DNA from: a virus
Taxonomy: Duplodnaviria > Heunggongvirae > Uroviricota > Caudoviricetes
IMG/VR virus record: IMGVR_UViG_2690316152_000014
Strand: one strand, 5' to 3'
Length of the DNA: 14,138 nt
The notes under the pieces are model-generated. The model was not told where the DNA came from, made no database searches, and saw only the letters and a list, made by a program, of their open reading frames with translations. The position numbers and the translations under genes were made by a program. Positions 701 through 14,138 of the stretch are shown here, in pieces (position 1 is the stretch's first letter; each line of letters opens with the position of its first letter).

Positions 701-1114
701 ATGAAAAAGATTATCGCTGGTATCGTTCTTGCTATGGGTTTGGTTGGTACTGCTAATGCTAATACCTATTATGTGTGTAATTCCTACTTCGAACATAAAG
801 GAGATGATACACGCTACCTGAGTGATGGCGACCGTTATTATCATGCACCGTCTGGAAAATACCGTGGTTTTATCGGTGTAAAGGTTCGAGTGAATGATGA
901 TAATAGTCAATTTGCTTTCAACGATCCGGTATTTGATAGAACAATCAAAAGCCCGAAACTGAAAGAAGATAAGAACGAGAAAGAAGAATATTATGGTTCC
1001 GAAGATGGTAAGTCTTACATCAAATATCTGCATTCTATAGATGGCGCTCCTATATTTGATGTTAAAAAAGGTGATACATCTTATACCCTGATTAGCTGCC
1101 GTGAAATTCTTTAA
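701..1114 (+). CDS. secreted/periplasmic protein of unknown function, with a cleavable signal peptide
   Basis: N-terminus MKKIIAGIVLAMGLVGTANA has an n-h-c signal-peptide layout and an A-N-A signal peptidase I site, with no lipobox. RBS AAGAGGA upstream. Two Cys in the mature part (CNSY and ISCREIL). Confidence 0.7.
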   Translation: MKKIIAGIVLAMGLVGTANANTYYVCNSYFEHKGDDTRYLSDGDRYYHAPSGKYRGFIGVKVRVNDDNSQFAFNDPVFDRTIKSPKLKEDKNEKEEYYGSEDGKSYIKYLHSIDGAPIFDVKKGDTSYTLISCREIL

Positions 1115-2929: not shown

Positions 2930-3925
2930 TTACGCGGCCTCTAAGGGGCTTAAATCAAGTTCTAGGTCTTCCGGTTCCAACTCGGCTAATGGCATTGAGT
3001 GCATCATAGCGAAATCACGTTCTATATCATCTTCGGTTATGTAGTCTTCTGGGTTGATTTCGAAATCAGCATCAAAATATATTGGTTCGGGCGAATTGTT
3101 ATAAATGTACTCCTGTATGAATTTTTTCACATCATCCATTTTGCTGATTGGTAAAGTTTCAGTATAACCACGAGACATTAATTTACGACTAATCCGCTTA
3201 CCTTTGATGTGTTTTTTGATGCCACTTTCTAAATCACCAGCTTTCCAGCCGCAATCAAACGTGTGTGAATATTCAAGGGATAATATTTCATCGGTGTATC
3301 TTTGAGTTTCATACATTCGACGTAGTGGATTTTTGCGCGTAGTTATACCAAATTTTAAAAATTTTTCTCCTACACGAAAAACATAAAAAATAACTGGTCG
3401 ATGTGTATCTTTGTTCATCAAAGCATGTTGTTTCCCGTTTGAAAGAGCAGTTATAGCGCCACGTATAAGAGGACAAGTTAAACTCCCCCGATTACGACTA
3501 CTAAACAAATCGGCTTTGTTGTATATTTTACCATGACAATTACATTTTAGTTTTAGATGGGTTGTTATTCCTCTGTATGGTTCGGCTAGCCCTAAAACAT
3601 CCCAGCCAATCTTATTAAAGAAATTGGTTGAAACTTGTATGTACTCATGTTCTGTATACATGCAAGGTTTCTTATATGTTGGGTGATGGTCTTTTCCTGT
3701 AAACTTACCCATTAAGACACGTTGTAATAAAGGAGTTTTAACTTTATCGCCAACTTTTATATAAACTTTTGTTCGCTGGAATGGCTTATGGATAGGTAGA
3801 ACGAATCCCCCATAAATCCATCCATTAGATTTACATTGGTCAACAACCATTGATTCATATTCAGATGGGCTTTTAGCCGTTGATTTTTTGATGAAAGGAA
3901 TATCTTTAGCAAAAACGGTTTTCAT
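2930..3925 (-). CDS. Cys-rich GIY-YIG-like (T5orf172-like) putative homing endonuclease, paralog A
   Basis: ATG at 3925 with GAGGA RBS. Segment VIFYVFRVGEKFLKFGITT resembles a GIY-x(10)-YIG signature. Cys/His clusters upstream (LKLKCNCHG, LTCPL). Acidic C-terminal tail. Clearly paralogous to the 5053-6090 protein (shared WIYGGFVLP/LIYHGFVMP, KFGIT/KYGIT, GYTET). Confidence 0.55.
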   Translation of the reverse strand: MKTVFAKDIPFIKKSTAKSPSEYESMVVDQCKSNGWIYGGFVLPIHKPFQRTKVYIKVGDKVKTPLLQRVLMGKFTGKDHHPTYKKPCMYTEHEYIQVSTNFFNKIGWDVLGLAEPYRGITTHLKLKCNCHGKIYNKADLFSSRNRGSLTCPLIRGAITALSNGKQHALMNKDTHRPVIFYVFRVGEKFLKFGITTRKNPLRRMYETQRYTDEILSLEYSHTFDCGWKAGDLESGIKKHIKGKRISRKLMSRGYTETLPISKMDDVKKFIQEYIYNNSPEPIYFDADFEINPEDYITEDDIERDFAMMHSMPLAELEPEDLELDLSPLEAA

Positions 3926-3996
3926 AATAGCGAATCCTCATAAATTAAATTCACTATTATTTATTAGTATTTTTCTTGATAATAAAGATTGTTATT

Positions 3997-4668
3997 ATGT
4001 GTGATATTAAAATTAGCTTCATCAATTATAGCCATGTGAAAATTGATTATTCTCCTTCCATTGCAATGGAATTGAGAGATTATTTTAGCTTTGAAGTGGA
4101 AGGAGCCAGATTTAGTCCCAGATACAAATATTCGGGCTGGGATGGTCGTATTAGACTTTTTACCTATGAAAATTTGATGCCTATTGGCTTAGTTCGAATG
4201 GTTAGCGTGTTTTCAAAAAATATGGGTTATAGTGTTTTGATAGACCCTAGACTTTTGGAGCGGGAAAATGTCGATGAAAAGGAAATCGAAAAATGGTGCA
4301 ATGTCCTAGAATTATATTCTGGTGCTAACAGAGTTACCCCGCACTGGTATCAATCAAAAGCAGTCTTTGAAGGTATTCATCATAAACGTAGAATGTTAGT
4401 TCTTCCTACGTCCGCTGGCAAATCTGCTATCGCTTGTATGTTATCTCGTTGGTACTTAGAGAACTACGAAGGCAAAGTGTTGATCATTGTCCCGACGACC
4501 TCGCTTGTTCTCCAGATGCGGGATGATTTTGTTGATTATCGCCAGTTTCCTTATGAAGCTATTCATACTATCATGAGCGGTACTAGTAAGCATGTAGGGG
4601 ATCGCCTGATTGTTGTCAGTACATGGCAATCCGCTTGTAAACAGCCTCGTGAATGGTTTAAACAATAA
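3997..4668 (+). CDS. uvsW: UvsW-like SF2 DNA helicase, N-terminal fragment (223 aa), stops just before motif II; likely a gene remnant
   Basis: Collinear with the T4 UvsW N-terminus as recalled from memory: N-terminal domain, PHWYQ, Walker A LPTSAGKS, YLENYEGKVLIIVPTT, and WQS..KQPREWF. The ORF stops immediately before the expected DECH box. Start set to ATG 3997 (the track's 3976 is TTG). Confidence 0.7.
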   Translation: MCDIKISFINYSHVKIDYSPSIAMELRDYFSFEVEGARFSPRYKYSGWDGRIRLFTYENLMPIGLVRMVSVFSKNMGYSVLIDPRLLERENVDEKEIEKWCNVLELYSGANRVTPHWYQSKAVFEGIHHKRRMLVLPTSAGKSAIACMLSRWYLENYEGKVLIIVPTTSLVLQMRDDFVDYRQFPYEAIHTIMSGTSKHVGDRLIVVSTWQSACKQPREWFKQ

Positions 4669-4697
4669 AAAAGCGCCTACTATGAGGCGCTTTAATT
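4669..4697. terminator. bidirectional hairpin terminator between convergent genes
   Basis: AAAAAAGCGCCT-ACTATG-AGGCGCTTTAATTTTA: GC-rich stem flanked by an A-run and a T-run, between the uvsW fragment stop and the peptidase stop. Confidence 0.55.
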
Positions 4698-5051
4698 TTA
4701 TCCATACCAGCGGGATTTAGTGGAACGGCTATCAATATGGGTAAAGGTTTTATATTTGCCTAAGCCATATTGATTAGGATATTTGCTATCTAGATACGCG
4801 TGAACAATATCAGGCGAGACACCTTTCACTACAATATCTGCGGCCTTGCCCGTGATATGAATCGAACGAGAAGCACCACCAACTTTCTTATTGTGTGCCG
4901 GACAACGGTTAGCACTGTTAATAACTACTGGTTTCCCGAAGTGTTCGCGTACATCCTCAAGAATTGCCAGTAATTCCGCGTCTACGGTATCTTGTCCGCA
5001 CTTTCCACATTTGCATTCAAATTCCTTGCGAGAAAAATGTTTGCTTAACAT
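4698..5051 (-). CDS. peptidase M15-family protein (zinc D-Ala-D-Ala carboxypeptidase-like); possible cell-wall hydrolase
   Basis: Motifs SANRCPAHNKKVGGASRSIH, GKAADI and FTHID fit the H...D...H zinc site of M15 peptidases. N-terminal CKCGKC cluster. Start is 1 nt after the stop of the upstream paralog-B gene, with a GGGGG SD. Confidence 0.6.
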   Translation of the reverse strand: MLSKHFSRKEFECKCGKCGQDTVDAELLAILEDVREHFGKPVVINSANRCPAHNKKVGGASRSIHITGKAADIVVKGVSPDIVHAYLDSKYPNQYGLGKYKTFTHIDSRSTKSRWYG

Positions 5052-5052
5052 A

Positions 5053-6090
5053 TTACCCCCTATATGTAATTTTATAGTTGTTGGAGTTTTTACAAAAATC
5101 CATTGCCATTTTTCTAATCTGCGCTTCTTTGGTTATGTCACATGTTTCTGTATATCCGTCTGGGATTAGTTCTTTTGGTGCAGCGTGACTTCCTATGTTA
5201 TGTTTTACGGAATATTCTAGGTCATTGGCAACTTTTCCGTCACCGAAAGTTATATACCACAATAACTTGTGAGATAATCCTGACTCTCTTGATTGTTGTG
5301 TGATTCTCTTTTGTGGGTTTAGGTGATTTGTTATTCCATATTTGATATAATCGCCTACTTGCTGGACATAGAAAACACCTGGTTTACTTTTGTTATACCC
5401 ACTCTTAGAACAGCACGGACAACCATCGTTTTCGTAAACCAAACCATACGCAACAATAGTATCTGATATATGGCCTTTTTCACACTTTAGTTTTAGTTTT
5501 GACATAGCCAAAATTGGGGATTTAGGTCGTTTTATTAATTTGAGTCTCTTTTCTTTGCACCCGTCTTCAATTAATCCCAACCATTCGTCGTCTGTGTGCT
5601 TTCTCTTATTAATTCCTCTCTTAATTGACCCACAATGACGGCACCCAGCATCATTGTTTATGATTCTTGTGATTATCGTTTCGTATGTGGTGTTACAACA
5701 AGTGCATTTATATGATGCCTTTGTATCAAGCCCTTTATATTCTTCCAACAAACCAACTAAAACCATCTCTTTACGTTCTAATACATTGCTTGCTTTGGTG
5801 AGAATGGTTTCTTCGTCTCTATTATTTTTCTTTGGTAGTTTTAAAGAATCTCTATAACATTCAATACAAGCACCTTGTTTCTTAAGGGATTTGAATACTA
5901 TCGTTCTTGATGTGTTGTGTTTTTTGCAAGTTACATAAACGTGTGTATATTGACCTTTCCACGGCATGACGAAGCCATGATAAATCAAACCTAATTCACC
6001 ACATCGTTTAATTGCAATTGTTTCATAGTCGTGCGGAGTTTTTCTTTTGAATCCGGTGTAATCGATATATTCAGCAAATAAAACTTCCAT
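5053..6090 (-). CDS. Cys-rich GIY-YIG-like (T5orf172-like) putative homing endonuclease, paralog B
   Basis: Three Cys-rich modules (KRCG..VTCKKH..CIEC; KCTCC..GCRHCG; LKCEKGH..GCPCC), then GVFYVQQVGDYIKYGIT (GIY-YIG-like) and DGYTET. GGGGGA SD upstream of ATG 6090. Confidence 0.55.
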   Translation of the reverse strand: MEVLFAEYIDYTGFKRKTPHDYETIAIKRCGELGLIYHGFVMPWKGQYTHVYVTCKKHNTSRTIVFKSLKKQGACIECYRDSLKLPKKNNRDEETILTKASNVLERKEMVLVGLLEEYKGLDTKASYKCTCCNTTYETIITRIINNDAGCRHCGSIKRGINKRKHTDDEWLGLIEDGCKEKRLKLIKRPKSPILAMSKLKLKCEKGHISDTIVAYGLVYENDGCPCCSKSGYNKSKPGVFYVQQVGDYIKYGITNHLNPQKRITQQSRESGLSHKLLWYITFGDGKVANDLEYSVKHNIGSHAAPKELIPDGYTETCDITKEAQIRKMAMDFCKNSNNYKITYRG

Positions 6091-6100
6091 TAGTCCCCCA

Positions 6101-6128
6101 AATAAAAAAGCGACCGAAATTGGTCGCT
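6101..6128 (-). terminator. Rho-independent terminator ending the post-J cassette
   Basis: On the minus strand: stem AGCGACC/GGTCGCT with loop AATTTC, followed by TTTTTTATTT. Confidence 0.6.
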
Positions 6129-6142
6129 TGTATTTATTCGAG

Positions 6143-6490
6143 TTAAATGTATTGTAGAAGATACCCGGTAAAGCGGAGTCCCTTGATATAGTAGTTAGTA
6201 GTGCCTAGACATACCGCTCGTGTATCGCCAATACAATTGAAGTTGTAAGGATTAACTACATCAATCTCCTGCCCTACACGAAAGCGATACTTAGGACGTT
6301 TAGCGAGTGTCGCAACACAAAACACTAGCCCGTTACCATCATCGCGGATCATCTGCTTGAATTGTTTATGTTGGACTCTCTTCGCCTCAAAATCATAGGT
6401 CATTGATTCAGGGCTAATGCCATTGATAAAAATACCGGAAAGCTGATCGACCGGATAAGTAGGAAATTCAGTGAAAATATTTTTAGCCAT
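6143..6490 (-). CDS. hypothetical protein (115 aa)
   Basis: ORF with a GGGGG SD 7 nt upstream of ATG 6490. Last gene before the terminator. No motif recognised. Confidence 0.55.
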   Translation of the reverse strand: MAKNIFTEFPTYPVDQLSGIFINGISPESMTYDFEAKRVQHKQFKQMIRDDGNGLVFCVATLAKRPKYRFRVGQEIDVVNPYNFNCIGDTRAVCLGTTNYYIKGLRFTGYLLQYI

Positions 6491-6529
6491 GTTATACCCC
6501 CCATAAGTTTCTATGAGGGTATTTATGGA

Positions 6530-7213
6530 TTAAACGTATTTCATGCGTGATTTAATGTGCTTATTGATATGTTCAAGCATCATTACTTCGTTGCTTTCCC
6601 ACGATCCTAGCGTCGAATAACGAGTAGAAATTTTATCCGACTTAACGGCAACAATTCGCTTACTCTGTTTCTGTGTGCGTTTCTCTAAGCGACGTTTTGC
6701 CACCGCCGATCCATTCTTAGCGCGTTTGGTTCGGGATTTCTTAGGCTTGTACTTCTTCATGATAAAAGTCCCTTCCTGGTTCTCTACCTTGATGAAGTTG
6801 CCGTTTTCGATGTTACGCATCATCTTACCGCCTTTGATGGCCTTAATGTTCCCGTGAGAGTCTAAGACCTTACCGTTAGCGATTGGCACTAGCTTATTGA
6901 TTTTGCCACCATCGAAATAGTGTTTCAGATAGTCGTCCTGACTGCCGATCTTCTTGTCCTTATCCCTTGCTCCCTTGATGAAGATTTGGTGTCTGGTCCC
7001 TGATCGGTTCTTGTAGTTGGTATTGCCTACCGCTTGCTGAGTCCATCGAGTAGGTCTATCAACATTCTTGTTAATCTTCTTCTGGAGTGCTCTGGAAGCA
7101 AAGATCGCCCCTTCCCCTATCGCCTTTTCGAATGTATCGGTTGCCTTATCAGTCCATTGGCGTAACGCTTTCTTAGTCCTTAGAGCGTTTCGTTTATTGG
7201 TACTGATTGACAT
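6530..7213 (-). CDS. hypothetical highly basic protein (227 aa, Lys/Arg-rich)
   Basis: GGGGGG SD. Start is 1 nt after the stop of the 56-aa ORF. Long K/R-rich stretches (KKYKPKKSRTKRAKN, KRRLEKRTQKQSKR) suggest nucleic-acid binding or a virion-internal role. Confidence 0.6.
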   Translation of the reverse strand: MSISTNKRNALRTKKALRQWTDKATDTFEKAIGEGAIFASRALQKKINKNVDRPTRWTQQAVGNTNYKNRSGTRHQIFIKGARDKDKKIGSQDDYLKHYFDGGKINKLVPIANGKVLDSHGNIKAIKGGKMMRNIENGNFIKVENQEGTFIMKKYKPKKSRTKRAKNGSAVAKRRLEKRTQKQSKRIVAVKSDKISTRYSTLGSWESNEVMMLEHINKHIKSRMKYV

Positions 7214-7214
7214 A

Positions 7215-7385
7215 TTACCCCCCTAATAACGAAAAGACCCCCGCTAGTGTCCTGAGTAATTGTTCATCCACGGTCATAGCCGGGAGTTCAAGCCCAAAGG
7301 ACGTAAGCAGAGGTCTAATAGCTACGTTATAAGTGAGGGCGATAATCAAGAGATAACCAAAATATTTCTTAAGTCTATTCTTCAT
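7215..7385 (-). CDS. small membrane protein (56 aa, MKNRLKKYFGYLLIIALTYNVAIRPLLTSFGLELPAMTVDEQLLRTLAGVFSLLGG), not in the ORF track
   Basis: ATG at 7385 preceded by GGGGTG at about 6 nt. Hydrophobic helix YFGYLLIIALTY. Ends GGG-GGG-TAA, and that stop is coupled to the start of the 227-aa gene. Confidence 0.4.
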   Translation of the reverse strand: MKNRLKKYFGYLLIIALTYNVAIRPLLTSFGLELPAMTVDEQLLRTLAGVFSLLGG

Positions 7386-7405
7386 ATATTCACCCCTTTT
7401 TATTA

Positions 7406-7684
7406 TTATTTTTGTTTGAGTATGTCGAGAACTTGGTCAAATTTAGCATCCATCGCAACCACTTTTTTCTCTATGCCGTGTAGTGTTTGTTCCATTTGGT
7501 AAACACGTTCAGCAATCTGAGTATGGTTGTTCTGCATCGTCTCAAACTTCTGGTTTAACAATGCGTCGCTGGATTCCAATTTAGATAACCTATTTTCAGT
7601 TGCTATTTGATTTCGGTGAAGTCTCCAAAGACCACCACAAATTAAGGCGATAACACCGATACCGCCATATATAATTTCAGTCAT
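7406..7684 (-). CDS. membrane-anchored coiled-coil protein (92 aa); function unknown
   Basis: N-terminal helix IIYGGIGVIALICGGLW, then heptad-like sequence rich in Q/E/K/L. GGGGGCG SD 4 nt upstream of ATG 7684. Confidence 0.55.
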   Translation of the reverse strand: MTEIIYGGIGVIALICGGLWRLHRNQIATENRLSKLESSDALLNQKFETMQNNHTQIAERVYQMEQTLHGIEKKVVAMDAKFDQVLDILKQK

Positions 7685-7726
7685 TACGCCCCCGATATTT
7701 TTATAATTTAATGGCAGAATTATTTA

Positions 7727-7769
7727 GATAAAAATAATCCCGCCTAATCACAAAGTATTAAGCGGGATT
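7727..7769 (-). terminator. hairpin terminator candidate downstream of the J-like gene
   Basis: On the minus strand: AATCCCGCTTAA ... TTAGGCGGGATT stem-loop followed by ATTTTTATC. The long loop lowers confidence. Confidence 0.35.
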
Positions 7770-7787
7770 TATTATTAAATTAAATTG

Positions 7788-10700
7788 TTAACGAATAGAA
7801 ATACCAGAAGTGGCTTTTTTAGCGACCATCACAACAACATCGGTCGCACTACCCGATCTACGGGTTGAAACAGGCCATGCTTTAAACTCTAAAGTCACGC
7901 TACCCTTACCCGCTGGCATGTCTATAACGCTACTGTATGCAATAGGTATTGGTCCGCCTGATTCTAATGCTTTCAGTAAAGTACCATTTTTACGCACTTC
8001 TAAACGCATACGGCTATACCCGGTTCTGCCCGGATTATCACCAGTTCCTGCAATATCGTATTCAGCGCCAGCAACAATAATTGGCGGAATGATGATTTGA
8101 CGGTCAAATTTATGGTCATCATTGATCGTTACGGTAACAGCACCATCAGGAACACCAGCATCACCTAAAGTAGCAGCACCACGAGGAAACGCCTTAGATA
8201 CAGTCTTAACAAAATCACCGCGTACCTGAGTAGCTTCTAACATACCCTTAATAACACAGGATTCGTTAATCGTGACGTTGTTCAGAGTACCGGAATCAGC
8301 CGTGATATTACCTTTGATTTTGGCATTCATGAACGTAGCGGACCCGTTCTTGTTGATATGCCATCCGGTAGATCCGTTCCAGTTGGAAGACTGGATATAG
8401 TTACCGATTTTAGCGTTATCAATTGCACCGTTTACAATCTTGGCGTTAGTGATCGCCCCGTCCTGAATCTTCGCGCTATTAATTGCAGCATTGCCGATTT
8501 TAGCCGTGGTGATTGCCGCATCAGTAATCTGGGCTGTGCCGATTGAGGCATTACGGATCATGGACCAGTCCATATACACCTTGTTTCCTTCGACACCAAA
8601 CGGAACAACACCCGCCGCGCCATCCTGTGGAGCTACCACCAGCTTATCAGCCGTAAAGATGATTTTAGTCGGTTGTGCCGGATCGTTAGTTGCGCTCATG
8701 TGAATACCAGCCACACGACCATCTGCATTAACTGCAAGATTGTATTTGCTGTTAATGGTTCCCTTCAAAGCATCGATCTTAACGTCCGCTTCTTGGTTAA
8801 CACCAGCAATCTTGCCATCCATTTCTACCCGAACTTGATCAATCTTACTTGCGCTTGCTGCCTCACTGGTTGCAATTGCTTGTTTCAGGGTAGTAGCAGA
8901 TGCGCTAACTTCTTTGGTGATATCACCTTTCAATTCAGCTTTAACCTGATCAATCTTAGTGGAGCTAGCTTGATCACCAGAGACAATCAGACTCTTAAGA
9001 GTATCGGCTGAGGCTTGGACCGTCTGTCCTGTTTCAGTAGTGATTTGCTTGTGCATTGCATCAATTTTAGCATCGGCATTTTCGCCAGCTTGAGCAATAG
9101 CATCAGCGATAGTTTCATCTAAGCGATCTTGTAAACCAATCAGGTCTTCCAGTGCTTCTTTGTCCTGATCTTCCCAACTAATCGAAGATTTCATAGACAT
9201 GAAATACGGTTCAGACCAGACAGCATCATCCATGCCGAAAATATCGTAGTGAGCACCACGGATATAATAATCACCATCAGCCAAATCAAAGGAAGTATGG
9301 CTAACACTATTCGTGCTTACTGCCCTTGCATCGGAGAAAGTGTTATCGGTTGCATACTGGATGATTGACCCTGCATAGTCATGTTCTACGTCATCTGTCC
9401 AGCTAACAAACGCAGTATTAAAGCCACCACGCGCACTAAAACCTTTCATCGGCTTATGCTGTGGGTTGATAGCCACTAAACGCGCTGGGGCGCTCTCTGA
9501 GTTGTTATATCCTTTAACCGATACTTCCACCGTCAGTTGACGCGAAAGGCCGTTAAACTGGTTCATATCAAGCGTATAAGTCCATGATTCAGGATCGCGG
9601 GTACGGTACTGAATAGACTTACCAGCCTTGTTAGTAACCTTGATAATGTATGCTTCAAACAGGTCACTAAACTTGTTAGCTTCGCCGTTGATCATCACAT
9701 CTAAGCCTTGCTGGTTATCCCATTCGATAATCAGATCATTACCTTCGAAAGTGCCAGCCGTGCTACCCTGATTTTTGATTCGAATAGTCGGAGTCGGCAA
9801 TTCATAGGTAACAGTAGGATTCTGGTTAATCAGTTCTACCCAATCGGATCGCGCGATGATACCGAAAGCACAAATACGGTAATCGTAAGAACGATCTTTA
9901 GCCAGTGCATTGACATTGAAGATTTGCTGTGAAGTCTGACCCAGCTTAATCCAGTTAGGTGATCCGCTTACACGATAATCAATCTGGAAACCATAACGGT
10001 TAAAATCTTCCGGTGCATCCCATGTCAAAGTAACGTTTTTACCGTAAATCGTCTCGCCAGTTGCCTTAATTCTGAAATTAGTAGGCTTCTGTACTGTCAT
10101 TGAATCCGGTAAACCACTTGGTCTATTGTCTGGAGTTGCCGCATAGTTCAGGTCAGTATAAACCTGAGAATTATATTCTGTAGCGGTGATAGTCATCATC
10201 CCAGCAATACCAGAATCAATCGAGCGATCAATTGCGGTAATACGCCATAAAGAATTATTCAGTTTTAATTCATCATAGGTTACGCTAATAACATCCCATA
10301 CTTCGGCAGTGAATGCGTCAGTAGTCATAAAGCTGATAACCTGAGTGATACGAGATTTATTTCGTTCAATGCTCGCTAGTTTATCAATCTGGTCTTTAGA
10401 CTTAACGAAACGATATTCTACATCCTTAGCAATAATTCGACCATCTGCGCGAACAGTAGCATCGTTTTCAGCATCAGCCGGATAACGTAGCATTTGCTCC
10501 GAATAGTCGATTGATGGTTCTTGATATACCGCGTTAATGGTATTGAAATAACCGTTAGTACCACCAGTTTTAAGGGATACTTTACCCATCATAATATTGT
10601 CTTCATTGAAGGTATGCTTAACAATATCAGGAGCATCCAGTTTCAGAGTAATTCTTCCGAAGGATTCGAACATTACCCCGCCGAAAGTCTGCATTAATCC

Positions 10701-11567
10701 GGTTAAGTTCTCTTTAAAGCTGGCGTTCGGATCACATGCACCGTTTGAATGTAGATCCATCTGGCGTACTTGTTTACGCACTTTCAGGAATGAATCAACG
10801 TTAATGTTTTCAATTGGTACACTAAGACCATATTTTGTATTTGTCAGATAATGGAAAATCTGATCCACGCCGTTAGTGCTTGCCTCAATAGCATTGGTTT
10901 CAAGGTTACGGATTTTAAGGCCGCAAACGTCTACTGTTACCTGGCTATTCGTTTGCAGAATATCAACACCAGCAGCCAGAGATTTGTCATCACGGCGTAA
11001 AACAATACACATGGTCGCAATACCGTTACCCTTGTAAGCATCGGTCCAGTCTGAGCCTAAATGATGTTTAGCCAGTGACAATGCGGTGTTAGGATTCTTA
11101 CCCGTGCGAAACTCAACTTCTAAAACTTTGCGGTATTCGTCTTTAATGTTGCCCTTATCGAGTACACCATCACGGATCGTCATGTTCTTACCGACCAACA
11201 CATTTTTATTATCGATAAAGAGTGCTTTGTAATGGTCGATTTCACCCTCTGCAACAGAAAAGATTTGCACTAACTTATTGTTTTCTTTCTTAGAAATAGC
11301 TTTGTAAACGCAGTTTGTGCCAGTACGGGTAACACCAAAAAGAACGGGTACTACTGTTTTTGGATCGGTTGATGTTCCTAGTGTCACCGCATTATCTGGG
11401 CTTTGTACTTTAGGCGTTTTTGGCGTAGCAGCTACGGAAGCAATCAAGGTCATTGCACCAGCAGCCATACCGATAGCAACTGCGGTCATAACAGAGAATG
11501 TTGCAGCAGCAGCCATCCCAGCAGATGCACCCGCAATAACCGCACCTACTAATACTTCAATTCCCAT
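7788..11567 (-). CDS. lambda J-like central tail fiber / host specificity protein (1259 aa) with an N-terminal extension resembling the C-terminus of tail assembly protein I
   Basis: Size and position after the K-like gene. C-terminal ~200 aa match my recollection of the lambda J receptor-binding region (SGTLNNVTINE, DDHKFDRQIIIP, VIDMPAGKG, VVVMVAKKATSGISI). N-terminal Gly/Ala-rich hydrophobic segment and VVPVLFG motif resemble the gpI C-terminus. ATG at 11567 overlaps the upstream stop (TAATG). Confidence 0.85.
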   Translation of the reverse strand: MGIEVLVGAVIAGASAGMAAAATFSVMTAVAIGMAAGAMTLIASVAATPKTPKVQSPDNAVTLGTSTDPKTVVPVLFGVTRTGTNCVYKAISKKENNKLVQIFSVAEGEIDHYKALFIDNKNVLVGKNMTIRDGVLDKGNIKDEYRKVLEVEFRTGKNPNTALSLAKHHLGSDWTDAYKGNGIATMCIVLRRDDKSLAAGVDILQTNSQVTVDVCGLKIRNLETNAIEASTNGVDQIFHYLTNTKYGLSVPIENINVDSFLKVRKQVRQMDLHSNGACDPNASFKENLTGLMQTFGGVMFESFGRITLKLDAPDIVKHTFNEDNIMMGKVSLKTGGTNGYFNTINAVYQEPSIDYSEQMLRYPADAENDATVRADGRIIAKDVEYRFVKSKDQIDKLASIERNKSRITQVISFMTTDAFTAEVWDVISVTYDELKLNNSLWRITAIDRSIDSGIAGMMTITATEYNSQVYTDLNYAATPDNRPSGLPDSMTVQKPTNFRIKATGETIYGKNVTLTWDAPEDFNRYGFQIDYRVSGSPNWIKLGQTSQQIFNVNALAKDRSYDYRICAFGIIARSDWVELINQNPTVTYELPTPTIRIKNQGSTAGTFEGNDLIIEWDNQQGLDVMINGEANKFSDLFEAYIIKVTNKAGKSIQYRTRDPESWTYTLDMNQFNGLSRQLTVEVSVKGYNNSESAPARLVAINPQHKPMKGFSARGGFNTAFVSWTDDVEHDYAGSIIQYATDNTFSDARAVSTNSVSHTSFDLADGDYYIRGAHYDIFGMDDAVWSEPYFMSMKSSISWEDQDKEALEDLIGLQDRLDETIADAIAQAGENADAKIDAMHKQITTETGQTVQASADTLKSLIVSGDQASSTKIDQVKAELKGDITKEVSASATTLKQAIATSEAASASKIDQVRVEMDGKIAGVNQEADVKIDALKGTINSKYNLAVNADGRVAGIHMSATNDPAQPTKIIFTADKLVVAPQDGAAGVVPFGVEGNKVYMDWSMIRNASIGTAQITDAAITTAKIGNAAINSAKIQDGAITNAKIVNGAIDNAKIGNYIQSSNWNGSTGWHINKNGSATFMNAKIKGNITADSGTLNNVTINESCVIKGMLEATQVRGDFVKTVSKAFPRGAATLGDAGVPDGAVTVTINDDHKFDRQIIIPPIIVAGAEYDIAGTGDNPGRTGYSRMRLEVRKNGTLLKALESGGPIPIAYSSVIDMPAGKGSVTLEFKAWPVSTRRSGSATDVVVMVAKKATSGISIR
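8395..8545 (-). repeat. in-frame tandem short repeats inside the J-like gene, encoding (D/N)(A/G)AI(T/N)x-AKI(G/Q/V) units
   Basis: Protein segment TAQITDAAITTAKIGNAAINSAKIQDGAITNAKIVNGAIDNAKIGN. Matching DNA repeats of GCCGATTTTAGC / CGCGAAGATTCAGGA type were read by eye; coordinates are approximate. Confidence 0.45.
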
Positions 11568-13296: not shown

Positions 13297-14018
13297 TTAC
13301 ATCTTACGACGCTGGACGTCTTCTACATGCTGCGCAACTAATTTAGCATGACGTTTGATAGCATCCATGACCATCTTGTCTGAGCTATTAACGTTGCCGT
13401 TAATGTTCAAAGGCGCATTAACTTCAATCGGCTGAGAGTTGCCGCCTGATTTTTGAGCAGATAAGAAGTCTTTCAAATCACCGTTAGTACGCTGATCAAC
13501 TACTCGTTCACCCTTATCAAGCAACCATGTACCCTCACGCGGGATGTTATCGATACCATCATGCGCCATACCACTAACGTTAGTAGACTTGATGTTAGCA
13601 ATGCTTCCCATGTTCTGAGCAACAGCCAAAGCACTAGCGGCGATCTTCTGTCCTGTGGTTACGTTGGTCGGATCGTTCCATGCATCGGTGGCAGCCGTCC
13701 ACATGTTCACCGTCGCTTGCCCGATAGAGAATGCTTTATGAGCATTAAAAGCCATTTGCATAGCTTTAGTGTTTTCCTGCCCGAAAAGAGTCATTGCAGC
13801 AGAAAAACCACTGTACATATCATCGGCTATTGACTGGCGAGCATCAGCATATTTCTTCTCAATTGCAGCCATCCGTTTTTGATGGTTTTCGTTGAGTTTT
13901 TCTAATGCAGCCATCCGTTTAGCCGGATCATTAATACCATCGATCTTAAGACTTTCGGTCTTATAGTCTTGTTCAGCTTCCGATTTCTCTTTATCGATTG
14001 CATTAAATTTAGCAAACG
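13297..14018 (-). pseudogene. tail tape-measure-like protein, C-terminal fragment; 5' part cut off by an IS insertion
   Basis: The frame stays open upstream of Met 13914 to the IS junction at 14018/14019 and meets a stop only inside the IS (TAG at 14044-14046 on the minus strand). Ala-rich, helical composition and the position upstream of the M/L/K/J-type genes suggest a tape measure protein by synteny. Confidence 0.5.
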
Positions 14019-14138
14019 TGAACCGCCCCGGGAATCCTGGAGACTAAACTCCCTGAGAAAGAGGTAAACAGGATGACTAAAAATACACGTTTTTCCCCCG
14101 AGGTCCGTCAACGGGCAGTTCGTATGGTTCTGGAAAGT
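14019..14138 (+). mobile_element. IS3-family insertion sequence (IS629/IS1203/IS3411-like), left end; continues past the window
   Basis: Starts with TG: TGAACCGCCCCGGGAATCCTGGAGACTAAACTCCCTGAGAAAGAGGTAAACAGG, then an ATG encoding MTKNTRFSPEVRQRAVRMVLES. I recognise this as the IS629-group left inverted repeat and OrfA N-terminus. Confidence 0.8.
14073..14138 (+). CDS. IS3-family transposase OrfA, N-terminal 22 codons (partial)
   Basis: ATG at 14073 preceded by GAGG. Translation MTKNTRFSPEVRQRAVRMVLES is typical of the helix-turn-helix OrfA N-terminus of IS3-family elements. Confidence 0.8.
   Translation, partial: MTKNTRFSPEVRQRAVRMVLES

What the first reader, a model, noticed from the sequence alone, without database searches (positions are those of the whole stretch)
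6101..7769. Four-gene cassette of unknown function between the J-like gene and a strong terminator
Between candidate terminators at 7727-7769 and 6101-6128 lie four co-oriented genes: a 92-aa membrane-anchored coiled-coil protein, an unannotated 56-aa membrane protein, a 227-aa extremely basic protein and a 115-aa protein. The 56-aa and 227-aa genes are coupled (GGG GGG TAA T ATG). The position downstream of a tail fibre gene is a typical site for morons, exclusion or defence genes, and none of the four has a recognisable motif, so this is the best candidate here for an undescribed system. A lysis-related role (holin/spanin-like membrane proteins) is an alternative.
Basis: inference. Interest (0 to 1): 0.6.

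Follow-up and report, generated by a model that had tools for sequence, protein, structure and literature searches.

The report
Conserved lysis and tail-completion gene block
The four genes are not an add-on defence island but a fixed part of a temperate E. coli-type phage's late operon, probably two membrane proteins for host lysis, a lambda gpZ-like tail-completion protein and a small beta-barrel partner, that natively runs straight into the endolysin gene.

Summary
The four minus-strand ORFs, both hairpins and the GGGGGG-TAA-T-ATG coupling are real. The moron/defence reading is not supported.

- **Conservation.** The block p92-p56-p227-p115 keeps the same order in every relative examined, down to about 30-36% protein identity. 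It is always followed by an endolysin, of three unrelated families. Its GC matches the tail genes and it gives no PADLOC hits.
- **Lower boundary.** The "strong terminator" at 6108-6129 belongs to a homing-endonuclease insertion (5053-6142). That insertion sits exactly between the p115 stop codon and the endolysin ribosome-binding site.
- **p227.** It belongs to the large phrog_1924 "minor tail protein" family (hhalign 92%, E 6.6e-7). That family shows repeated sub-threshold, colinear similarity to lambda gpZ, the tail completion protein. p227 is hypervariable, like the tape measure.
- **p92.** It has the architecture of the Mu gp25 releasin (DUF2730) and weak sequence similarity to it.
- **p56.** It is a conserved single-TMD protein, and with p92 one of only two holin candidates for the signal-less M15 endolysin.
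- **p115.** It is a small beta-barrel of undecided role.
- **Open point.** No spanin genes are detectable in the prophage.

Verdict: an ordinary core late-gene block with poorly characterised members. Interest is low to moderate.

The parts
7736..7769 (-). Intrinsic-terminator-like hairpin plus T-run between the J-like gene and p92
   Evidence: Found by the scan. It is conserved in 7 relatives with wobble or compensatory stem changes and a T-run.
7406..7684 (-). [quoted passage not shown] It is releasin-like (DUF2730-like) and a candidate lysis factor.
   Evidence: TMD. Basic residues follow the TMD, which implies an N-out/C-in topology (inference). The L033 orthologue carries a faint PF10805 hit. 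Mu gp25 phmmer hits only the p92 orthologues, at E 0.03-0.39. A GGxW...ENRxxxxE motif is shared with Mu gp25. It matches phrog_12015 (unknown function) at 4e-5.
7215..7385 (-). p56: small single-TMD protein with no Cys and a conserved ...LLGG end. Candidate holin or holin accessory.
   Evidence: Positional homologues of 54-57 aa occur in all relatives. The substitution pattern indicates purifying selection.
6530..7213 (-). p227: very basic protein of the phrog_1924 'minor tail protein' family. Probable gpZ-like tail completion protein. Hypervariable allele.
   Evidence: Its identity is 33% in phages whose flanking genes are about 90% identical.
6143..6490 (-). p115: small beta-barrel protein that always follows p227. 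Role undecided; possibly a tail or neck component.
6108..6129 (.). Bidirectional hairpin that arrived with the endonuclease insertion. It is not the native end of the block.
   Evidence: It is absent from relatives that lack the endonuclease, where the p115 stop is followed directly by GGGGGTAATATG of the endolysin.
5053..6090 (-). Free-standing homing-endonuclease-like gene (345 aa, CapR/T5orf172-type), inserted between p115 and the endolysin
   Evidence: phrog_681 at 1e-42 and PF21817. It is absent in 39EVA, L029, L032 and L126-L129. GC is 35.6% against about 42% for its neighbours.
4698..5051 (-). Peptidase_M15_3 endolysin without a signal or SAR segment. It is the native fifth gene of the block.
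   Evidence: PF08291 at 1e-29 and phrog_894 at 1e-44. It directly abuts p115 in relatives.
4670..4693 (.). Bidirectional terminator-like hairpin after the endolysin. Likely the true end of the late operon.
7788..11567 (-). J-like tail tip / host specificity protein upstream of the block
   Evidence: PF09327, PF12421 and phrog_2148.

Best explanation
The window is the integrase-proximal end of a roughly 35-kb temperate siphophage of Enterobacteriaceae. The phage has a gpW-like adaptor, a lambda-like portal, a fused protease-capsid head and a GTA/Cronusvirus-like tail tip. The four genes plus the endolysin form the conserved last segment of its late operon, set off from the tail genes by a conserved hairpin. 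I read two functions in the block. (i) Lysis at the inner membrane: p92 is an N-out/C-in membrane-tethered cytoplasmic coiled-coil protein like the Mu releasin gp25 (DUF2730), and p56 is a small single-TMD protein. Together they give the cytoplasmic M15 endolysin access to the murein. (ii) Tail completion: p227 is a divergent member of the phrog_1924 family, itself a distant relative of lambda gpZ. By analogy with the 80alpha tail completion protein, a copy would sit inside the head-proximal tail lumen, contact the tape measure and the DNA end, and be needed for infectivity. p115 is its constant small beta-barrel neighbour, and its role is undecided. Shown here: conservation, synteny, family membership of p227, the endonuclease insertion, and the absence of defence signatures. 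Inferred: all functions and mechanisms.
For: **Core status.** The gene order is the same in L029-31, L032, L126-129, L033/34 and L037/38. J identity falls from 87% to 36% across them, and the endolysin is swapped between PF08291, PF00959 and PF13539. GC is 38-44%, as in the tail genes.

**Native junction.** The p115 stop is followed directly by the endolysin RBS and start codon.

**p227.**
- The A1 profile finds 12 cluster representatives. Eight of the nine scanned hit phrog_1924, the best being P0033 at 2.4e-33, and P0033 also hits phrog_27 (Neck1/tail completion) at 0.0055.
- hhalign of phage family members against the p227 family gives 92% probability, E 6.6e-7, over 175 columns.
- The family has more than 1000 clusters, and 4 of the top 120 carry PF06763.
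- R4C ORF049, LESphi3 P31_35 and P0033 hit PF06763 colinearly at E 0.013-0.11.
- The family profile against lambda gpZ gives E 2.9e-4, 40% probability, over the N-terminal 70 columns.
- Phages carrying the family lack a Z-like gene in the canonical neck position.
- Predicted secondary structure is long N-terminal helices, a central beta element and a long C-terminal helix. This matches the tail-completion-protein architecture described for 80alpha gp51 and gpZ (PMC11661146).
- p227 and the tape measure are the two hypervariable proteins of the module. There is partial co-variation with the tape measure: Mantel r 0.60, p 0.008 for the middle third.

**p92 and p56.**
- They are the only TMD proteins among the late genes besides J and the tape measure.
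- The endolysin has no hydrophobic N-terminus.
- DUF2730 evidence comes, and the gp25 description from PMC9239132.
Against: - No function was tested.
- p227 itself does not hit PF06763. Its own phrog_1924 E-value is only 0.003.
- hhalign against gpZ, HK97 gp10 and Mu gpG is weak or null.
- The AF2 model of p227 is poor, at pLDDT 43.
- The R4C cryo-EM model of 12 structural proteins does not include the family member ORF049, although gpZ is likewise unseen in lambda maps.
- In cultured phages the family sits next to terS and the lysis genes, with both siphovirus and myovirus tails. That would also fit a packaging or lysis role.
- The co-variation with the tape measure does not involve its N-terminus, where 80alpha TCP binds, and it would not survive correction for 14 tests.
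- p92 does not reach any Pfam DUF2730 threshold. [quoted passage not shown]
- p56 has no holin family hit.
- No spanin was found, so the lysis scheme is incomplete.
Confidence: 0.55

Rival explanations
1. All five genes form one extended lysis cassette. p92 and p56 act at the inner membrane, the M15 enzyme degrades murein, and the very basic p227 (with p115) replaces the missing spanins by disrupting the outer membrane, as the cationic phiKT gp28 does.
For: No lipobox o-spanin or u-spanin candidate exists anywhere in the prophage. p227 has pI 10.6. The five genes are translationally coupled and always contiguous. In LESphi3 the family member directly follows holin-endolysin-Rz. Non-spanin outer-membrane disruptors are known (cited).
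Against: Family members coexist with Rz-type spanins in LESphi3 and phiNP. In RcCronus, R4C and Pben1 they sit next to terS rather than next to an annotated lysis gene. There is sub-threshold gpZ similarity. p227 has no secretion signal or amphipathic-peptide character, and at 227 aa it is unlike a 56-aa disruptin.
Confidence: 0.12
2. p227 is a DNA-packaging accessory (cos or DNA-end-binding helper of the lambda-type terminase), not a tail protein.
For: In RcCronus, R4C, LESphi3, phiNP and Pben1 the gene lies immediately upstream of terS, the position HNH packaging factors occupy in HK97-like phages. It travels with the lambda-like TerL/gpW/portal head module across siphovirus and myovirus tails. 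It is strongly basic.
Against: In this prophage family it is not adjacent to terS. terS lies at the other prophage end. There is no nuclease or HTH motif. gpZ-like similarity is present. gpZ has itself been proposed to bind a DNA end, so the two readings overlap.
Confidence: 0.13
3. The cassette is a moron, superinfection-exclusion or anti-phage defence island acquired downstream of the tail fibre gene.
For: It lies after the J-like gene and is preceded by a terminator hairpin. It encodes two small membrane proteins. p227 shows allele replacement typical of arms-race genes.
Against: It is present in every relative with the same order down to about 30% identity. Its GC is the same as the tail genes. 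It is translationally coupled into the endolysin. There are no PADLOC hits. p227 is homologous to a widespread phage late-gene family.
Confidence: 0.05

Closest known systems
phrog_1924 'minor tail protein' family (RcCronus gp44, R4C ORF049, LESphi3 P31_35 annotated 'minor tail protein Z', phiNP_029)
   Same: Full-length colinear homology with p227 (hhalign 92%, E 6.6e-7). Shared motifs are DRPTxFT, YL..GG, YGNI and a C-terminal helix. All are late genes of phages with a lambda-type terminase/gpW/portal head and a fused or lambda-like capsid module.
   Different: The cultured members sit immediately upstream of terS. p227 sits between two membrane-protein genes and p115-endolysin, separated from terS by the integration module. 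The p227 subfamily is more basic and only 17-25% identical to them. No family member has an experimentally shown role.
Lambda gpZ / 80alpha gp51 / SPP1 gp16.1 tail completion proteins (Pfam PF06763 for gpZ)
   Same: Repeated sub-threshold colinear matches of family members to PF06763. The N-terminal profile matches gpZ at E 2.9e-4. Size and charge are similar. The predicted helix - beta insert - helix layout is the same. The host phages otherwise lack a Z-like neck gene.
   Different: Pfam threshold is not reached. The gene is not located between the head-closure and terminator genes. Virion location is untested. No hhalign signal to HK97 gp10 or Mu gpG.
Mu gp25 releasin (DUF2730, PF10805)
   Same: p92 is 92 aa against 99 aa for gp25. 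Both have an N-terminal TMD with almost no periplasmic part, a predicted N-out/C-in topology and a helical cytoplasmic domain of about 70 aa, and both lie within a few genes of the endolysin. There is weak sequence similarity and a shared GGxW...ENR..E motif.
   Different: No Pfam-level match for the window protein. The phage is not transposable. The gene lies upstream of the endolysin, not downstream. The partner endolysin is cytoplasmic rather than SAR. The Mu paper notes this situation for some DUF2730 types but leaves it functionally unexplained.
Roseophage R4C / Cronusvirus gene layout
   Same: The head and tail-tip architecture is the same. R4C also places a neck gene (terminator ORF018) downstream of the J-like megatron gene.
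   Different: No sequence similarity between p115 and R4C ORF018 or RcCronus gp20. Cronusviruses have no p92/p56 counterparts at that position.

Membership tests
phrog_1924 'minor tail protein' family (p227) | Significant profile match over the full length | tested here: met
   The window protein scores E 0.003. The profile of its close family retrieves P0033, which hits phrog_1924 at 2.4e-33. hhalign A6 vs A1 gives 92% probability, E 6.6e-7, over 175 columns.
phrog_1924 'minor tail protein' family (p227) | Conserved motifs (DRPTxFT, YL..GG, YGNI, C-terminal helix) in register | tested here: met
   Alignments A5 and A7: P54, G121 and N122 are invariant; T58, Y95 and L96 are nearly invariant.
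Lambda gpZ tail completion protein (PF06763) | Pfam gathering score (23.9 bits) | tested here: not met
   p227 has no hit. Relatives score 12.8-15.8 bits at E 0.013-0.11. Only 4 of 120 family clusters carry PF06763.
Lambda gpZ tail completion protein (PF06763) | TCP fold: long bent N-terminal helix, beta hairpin or insert, C-terminal helix | tested here: inconclusive
   The AF2 model has pLDDT 43. Its secondary structure (H2-51, E140-153, H197-226) is compatible but unreliable.
Lambda gpZ tail completion protein (PF06763) | Gene located between the head-closure and tail-terminator genes | tested here: not met
   The gene lies after J, p92 and p56. In other phages of the family it lies upstream of terS.
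Lambda gpZ tail completion protein (PF06763) | Present in the tail lumen of virions and required for infectivity | not testable with these tools
   Needs virion proteomics or cryo-EM and a knockout.
DUF2730 / Mu gp25 releasin (p92) | PF10805 match | tested here: not met
   PF10805 does not appear in the full Pfam table of the window protein, nor among the 25 (of 50) families listed for the five p92-family members, in scans run at E up to 10. A faint precomputed hit exists only in the L033/L034 orthologue. Mu gp25 phmmer gives E 0.03-0.39 against the p92 orthologues only.
DUF2730 / Mu gp25 releasin (p92) | N-terminal TMD, N-out/C-in, about 70-aa cytoplasmic domain | tested here: met
   TMD at residues about 4-20, followed by RLHR and a 70-aa coiled coil. 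Topology is inferred from the positive-inside rule only.
DUF2730 / Mu gp25 releasin (p92) | [quoted passage not shown] | tested here: not met
   This is a serine-recombinase prophage. p92 lies 3-4 genes upstream of the endolysin.
Two-component spanin (p92 as i-spanin) | Partner o-spanin lipoprotein (lipobox-Cys) embedded, overlapping or adjacent | tested here: not met
   p56 has no Cys. No credible lipobox ORF occurs in the window or in the whole E275a prophage.
Holin (p56) | Small protein with at least one TMD and a charged C-terminus, in the lysis cassette, causing membrane lesions | tested here: inconclusive
   It has one TMD and lies in the block. The C-terminus is not charged (…SLLGG). 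No holin family hit. Activity is untestable here.
Moron / defence island | Patchy distribution among related phages, deviant composition, match to known defence proteins | tested here: not met
   Present in all relatives. GC matches neighbours. No PADLOC hits.
Tail-tube-fold proteins (terminator / gpM-like / stopper) (p115) | Structural match to the tail tube fold | tested here: inconclusive

The most novel reading that the evidence does not exclude
The phage has no spanins, and the invariably linked block p92-p56-p227-p115-endolysin is a new five-component lysis system. In it a releasin-like protein works with a cytoplasmic endolysin, and the highly basic p227 (with p115) breaches the outer membrane. 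Alternatively, p227 is an ejected DNA-end pilot protein whose allele replacement tracks an arms race with host exclusion systems.
Probability: 0.12. Interest if true: 0.6.

Novelty: new member of a known kind. Interest (0 to 1): 0.3.

Why it matters
Four 'hypothetical' genes that recur in many E. coli and Salmonella prophages (more than 1000 member sequences for the p227 cluster alone) are reclassified as core late functions rather than cargo. The work also links a family of more than 1000 clusters, annotated only as 'minor tail protein', to the gpZ-type tail completion proteins. The location of those proteins inside the tail was first seen only in 2024.

Two testable oddities come out of it. 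One is a DUF2730-like protein outside transposable phages, paired with a cytoplasmic endolysin. The other is an apparently spanin-less lysis set in an enterobacterial phage.

The finding does not reveal a new kind of system.

Tried and rejected
- **Phage collection searches.** tblastn of p227, p115 and p92, and a distant blastn of the region, found no match.
- **Family scans of the four proteins.** Pfam and NCBIfam gave only coiled-coil noise for p92 and nothing for p56, p227 or p115.
- **Structure of p227.** AF2 gave pLDDT 43, which is unusable for fold search.
- **PDB sequence/profile searches.** Nothing for the p227 or p115 families or for the 96- and 140-aa neck proteins.
- **hhalign, p227 family.** The small A3 profile against lambda gpZ, and the deep profile against HK97 gp10 and Mu gpG, gave no signal.
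- **hhalign, p115 family.** No signal against lambda gpU, the HK97 terminator or RcCronus gp20.
- **phmmer of prophage neck proteins.** Nothing against the ORFs of R4C, RcCronus, LESphi3 and phiNP.
- **Literature and supplement look-ups.** No virion evidence for R4C ORF049 or RcCronus gp44.
- **p92 as i-spanin.** Rejected: there is no o-spanin partner.
- **p115 as terS.** Rejected: a Nu1-like terS exists elsewhere in the prophage.
- **Tape measure N-terminus co-varying with p227.** Tested and not found.
Full report
**1. What is in the window**

Everything of interest is on the minus strand. Reading in the direction of transcription, the order is:

- tape measure C-terminus (to 13297);
- a distal tail protein of 186 aa;
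- a hub protein;
- a DUF6950 protein;
- a 1259-aa J-like tip protein (7788-11567);
- p92 (7406-7684), p56 (7215-7385), p227 (6530-7213) and p115 (6143-6490);
- a 345-aa endonuclease-like gene (5053-6090);
- a Peptidase_M15_3 endolysin (4698-5051).

On the plus strand follow a truncated UvsW-type helicase, and further on a large serine recombinase.

**2. Provenance**

The window is about 90% identical to prophages of about 35 kb found in many E. coli genomes and in IMG/VR contigs.

In strain E275a the prophage is inserted in hicB. It carries a gpA-type terminase, a gpW-like adaptor (phrog_5774), a lambda-like portal, a 667-aa fused protease-capsid and a GTA-like tail tip. The closest described architecture is that of the Cronusviruses RcCronus and R4C.

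**3. The lower boundary is an insertion**

In strain 39EVA and in six further relatives, the p115 stop codon is followed directly by GGGGGTAATATG, the RBS and start of the endolysin. Alignment shows that in the window about 1.09 kb has been inserted exactly at that point. The inserted piece is the hairpin 6108-6129 plus the endonuclease-like gene. Its GC is 35.6%, against about 42% for its neighbours.

The native unit is therefore five genes ending with the endolysin and the hairpin at 4670-4693.

The upper hairpin, after J, is conserved in seven relatives. Its stem shows wobble or compensatory changes.

**4. The block is core, not cargo**

The order is always the same: a TMD coiled-coil protein of about 100 aa, a TMD protein of about 55 aa, a p227 homologue, a protein of about 105-118 aa, then an endolysin. 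It recurs in every relative examined.

| Relative | J | p92 | p227 | p115 | Endolysin |
|---|---|---|---|---|---|
| L029 | 87% | 91% | 33% | 90% | 87% |
| L032 | 72% | 80% | 34% | 64% | 76% |
| L033/34 | 36% | 28% | 36% | 36% | PF00959 lysozyme instead |
| L037/38 | — | — | — | — | Peptidase_M15_4 instead |

(Identities to the window proteins.)

The GC of the four genes (38-44%) matches the tail genes. PADLOC finds nothing.

**5. p227**

Only six close homologues were found by word-based search. A profile search of 1.8 billion representatives found 12.

Eight of the nine that were scanned hit phrog_1924 'minor tail protein'. P0033 does so at 2.4e-33, and it also hits phrog_27 'tail completion or Neck1' at 0.0055. 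A profile of cultured-phage members (RcCronus gp44, R4C ORF049, LESphi3 P31_35, phiNP_029, Pben1 p35, P0033) matches the p227 family at 92% probability, E 6.6e-7, over 175 columns. The combined profile retrieves more than 1000 clusters.

The link to lambda gpZ is weaker but recurrent:

- PF06763 is precomputed on 4 of the top 120 clusters.
- Three of six phage members give colinear PF06763 hits at E 0.013-0.11.
- LESphi3's copy is annotated 'minor tail protein Z'.
- hhalign of the phage members against gpZ aligns the N-terminal 70 columns at E 2.9e-4, 40% probability.

The phages that carry the family lack a Z-like gene between their stopper and terminator genes.

The 2024 structure of the 80alpha neck shows a single tail completion protein (TCP) inside the tail. 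It is bound to the DNA end and to the tape measure N-termini. The same paper notes that gpZ has never been seen in lambda maps (PMC11661146). The absence of R4C ORF049 from the R4C model is therefore not strong counter-evidence.

The low-confidence AF2 model of p227 has the expected layout: long N-terminal helices, a central beta element and a long C-terminal helix.

Caveats are as follows:

- p227 itself does not reach Pfam thresholds.
- Comparisons with HK97 gp10 and Mu gpG are null.
- In cultured phages the gene lies immediately upstream of terS, often just after the lysis genes, with both siphovirus and myovirus tails. That keeps packaging or lysis roles open.

**6. Hypervariability and the tape measure**

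In phages whose Dit, hub, DUF6950 and J N-terminal parts are 90-96% identical to the window, p227 is only 33% identical and the tape measure C-terminal part 54-57%.

Across seven phages, p227 identity correlates with the middle third of the tape measure (Mantel r 0.60, p 0.008) and with its C-terminal third (r 0.52, p 0.026). It correlates with none of the twelve other segments.

The signal rests largely on one allele group. It is absent for the tape measure N-terminus and would not survive correction for multiple tests. I treat it as a hint that p227 belongs functionally with the tail interior.

**7. p92 and p56**

Apart from J and the tape measure, these are the only late-operon proteins with hydrophobic segments. 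The M15 endolysin has no signal or SAR segment, so some membrane-permeabilising partner is needed.

p92 has a TMD at residues about 4-20, followed by RLHR and a 70-aa coiled coil. That is the N-out/C-in layout described for the 99-aa Mu releasin gp25, the prototype of DUF2730 (PMC9239132). Three results tie p92 to that family:

- The L033/L034 orthologue carries a faint PF10805 hit.
- Mu gp25 searched against all ORFs of five loci hits only the p92 orthologues, at E 0.03-0.39.
- hhalign aligns a shared GGxW...ENRxxxxE stretch.

Pfam thresholds are not met, and the published family is confined to transposable phages. I therefore claim resemblance, not membership.

p56 is conserved under purifying selection. 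It has one TMD, no cysteine and no family hit. It is the simplest holin candidate, but this is inference only.

No lipobox o-spanin candidate exists in the window or in the whole prophage. p92 is therefore not an i-spanin, and outer-membrane disruption is unaccounted for.

**8. p115**

It has 17 close homologues only. The AF2 model (pLDDT 66, pTM 0.63) shows a disordered N-terminus and a five-stranded beta domain.

R4C sets a precedent for a neck gene (the terminator) downstream of the J-like gene. However, there is no sequence link, and the prophage has an unassigned 140-aa protein in the canonical neck position. The role of p115 stays open.

**9. Verdict**

The moron/defence interpretation is not supported. 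The lysis alternative is plausible for two of the four genes.

The best reading is a conserved terminal late-gene block that combines inner-membrane lysis factors with a gpZ-like tail completion protein and its small partner, interrupted in this window by a homing-endonuclease insertion. It is a new member of known kinds, of low to moderate interest.

The residual novel possibility is a spanin-independent five-gene lysis system or a fast-evolving ejected pilot protein. I put that at about 12%.

Noticed in passing
window 3976-4668 (+): A 230-aa N-terminal fragment of a UvsW-type helicase, 84-89% nucleotide-identical to uvsW of T4-like Krischvirus phages (JSE, RB49-like). Relatives of this temperate siphophage carry full-length UvsW plus UvsW.1 and/or UvsY next to the endolysin. 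That implies recent exchange between a temperate siphophage family and virulent T4-like phages.
   Followed up: partly
window 5053-6142 (-): A 345-aa CapR/T5orf172-type endonuclease-like gene with its own upstream hairpin is inserted precisely between the p115 stop codon and the endolysin RBS. A strong hairpin now stands between the late operon and the endolysin.
   Followed up: yes
window 2930-3925 (-): A second, paralogous endonuclease-like gene (331 aa, similar N-terminal CapR-like region) lies between the recombinase and the UvsW remnant. Relatives carry variants of 331-396 aa at this place.
   Followed up: partly
window 13297-14138 and 6530-7213; loci L001, L029, L032, L126-L129: The tape measure and p227 are the two hypervariable proteins of an otherwise 80-96% conserved tail module. 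Their identity matrices correlate (Mantel r 0.60, p 0.008 for the middle third of the tape measure), but not at the tape measure N-terminus.
   Followed up: yes
window 7788-8870 (J C-terminal ~360 aa): The C-terminal part of J is only 62-74% identical to relatives, against 93-96% for the rest of the protein. The megablast search also listed many Stx-converting phage records at 95-99% identity to some part of the window. I did not check which part.
   Followed up: no
window 7685-7735 (-), downstream of the J terminator: A conserved motif (CTAAATAwTTyTGCC) lies between the terminator T-run and the p92 RBS in seven relatives. It could be a regulatory or promoter element for the lysis/completion block. 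No sigma-70 consensus is evident.
   Followed up: no
L003 7748-8299 (-) (E275a prophage): The likely small terminase (Nu1-like winged HTH, 183 aa) lies at the far prophage end, about 7 kb from the large terminase gene and separated from it by regulatory genes and an IS421. In the circular phage genome, only the integration module and an LprI-like gene separate it from the p227-p115-endolysin block.
   Followed up: partly
window 701-1114 (+): A 137-aa protein with a cleavable-looking signal peptide lies next to the recombinase. It is present in only some relatives, so it is a better moron candidate than the flagged cassette.
   Followed up: no
L001/L003 whole prophage and window: No two-component or unimolecular spanin candidate (lipobox ORF) could be found anywhere in this enterobacterial prophage.
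   Followed up: partly
loci L001, L002, L029-L032, L126-L129: Members of the family use different attachment sites: within hicB, within codB, and next to csgG/nitrate-reductase delta genes. Their serine recombinases are only 66-78% identical to the window's, except in 39EVA at 97%.
   Followed up: no
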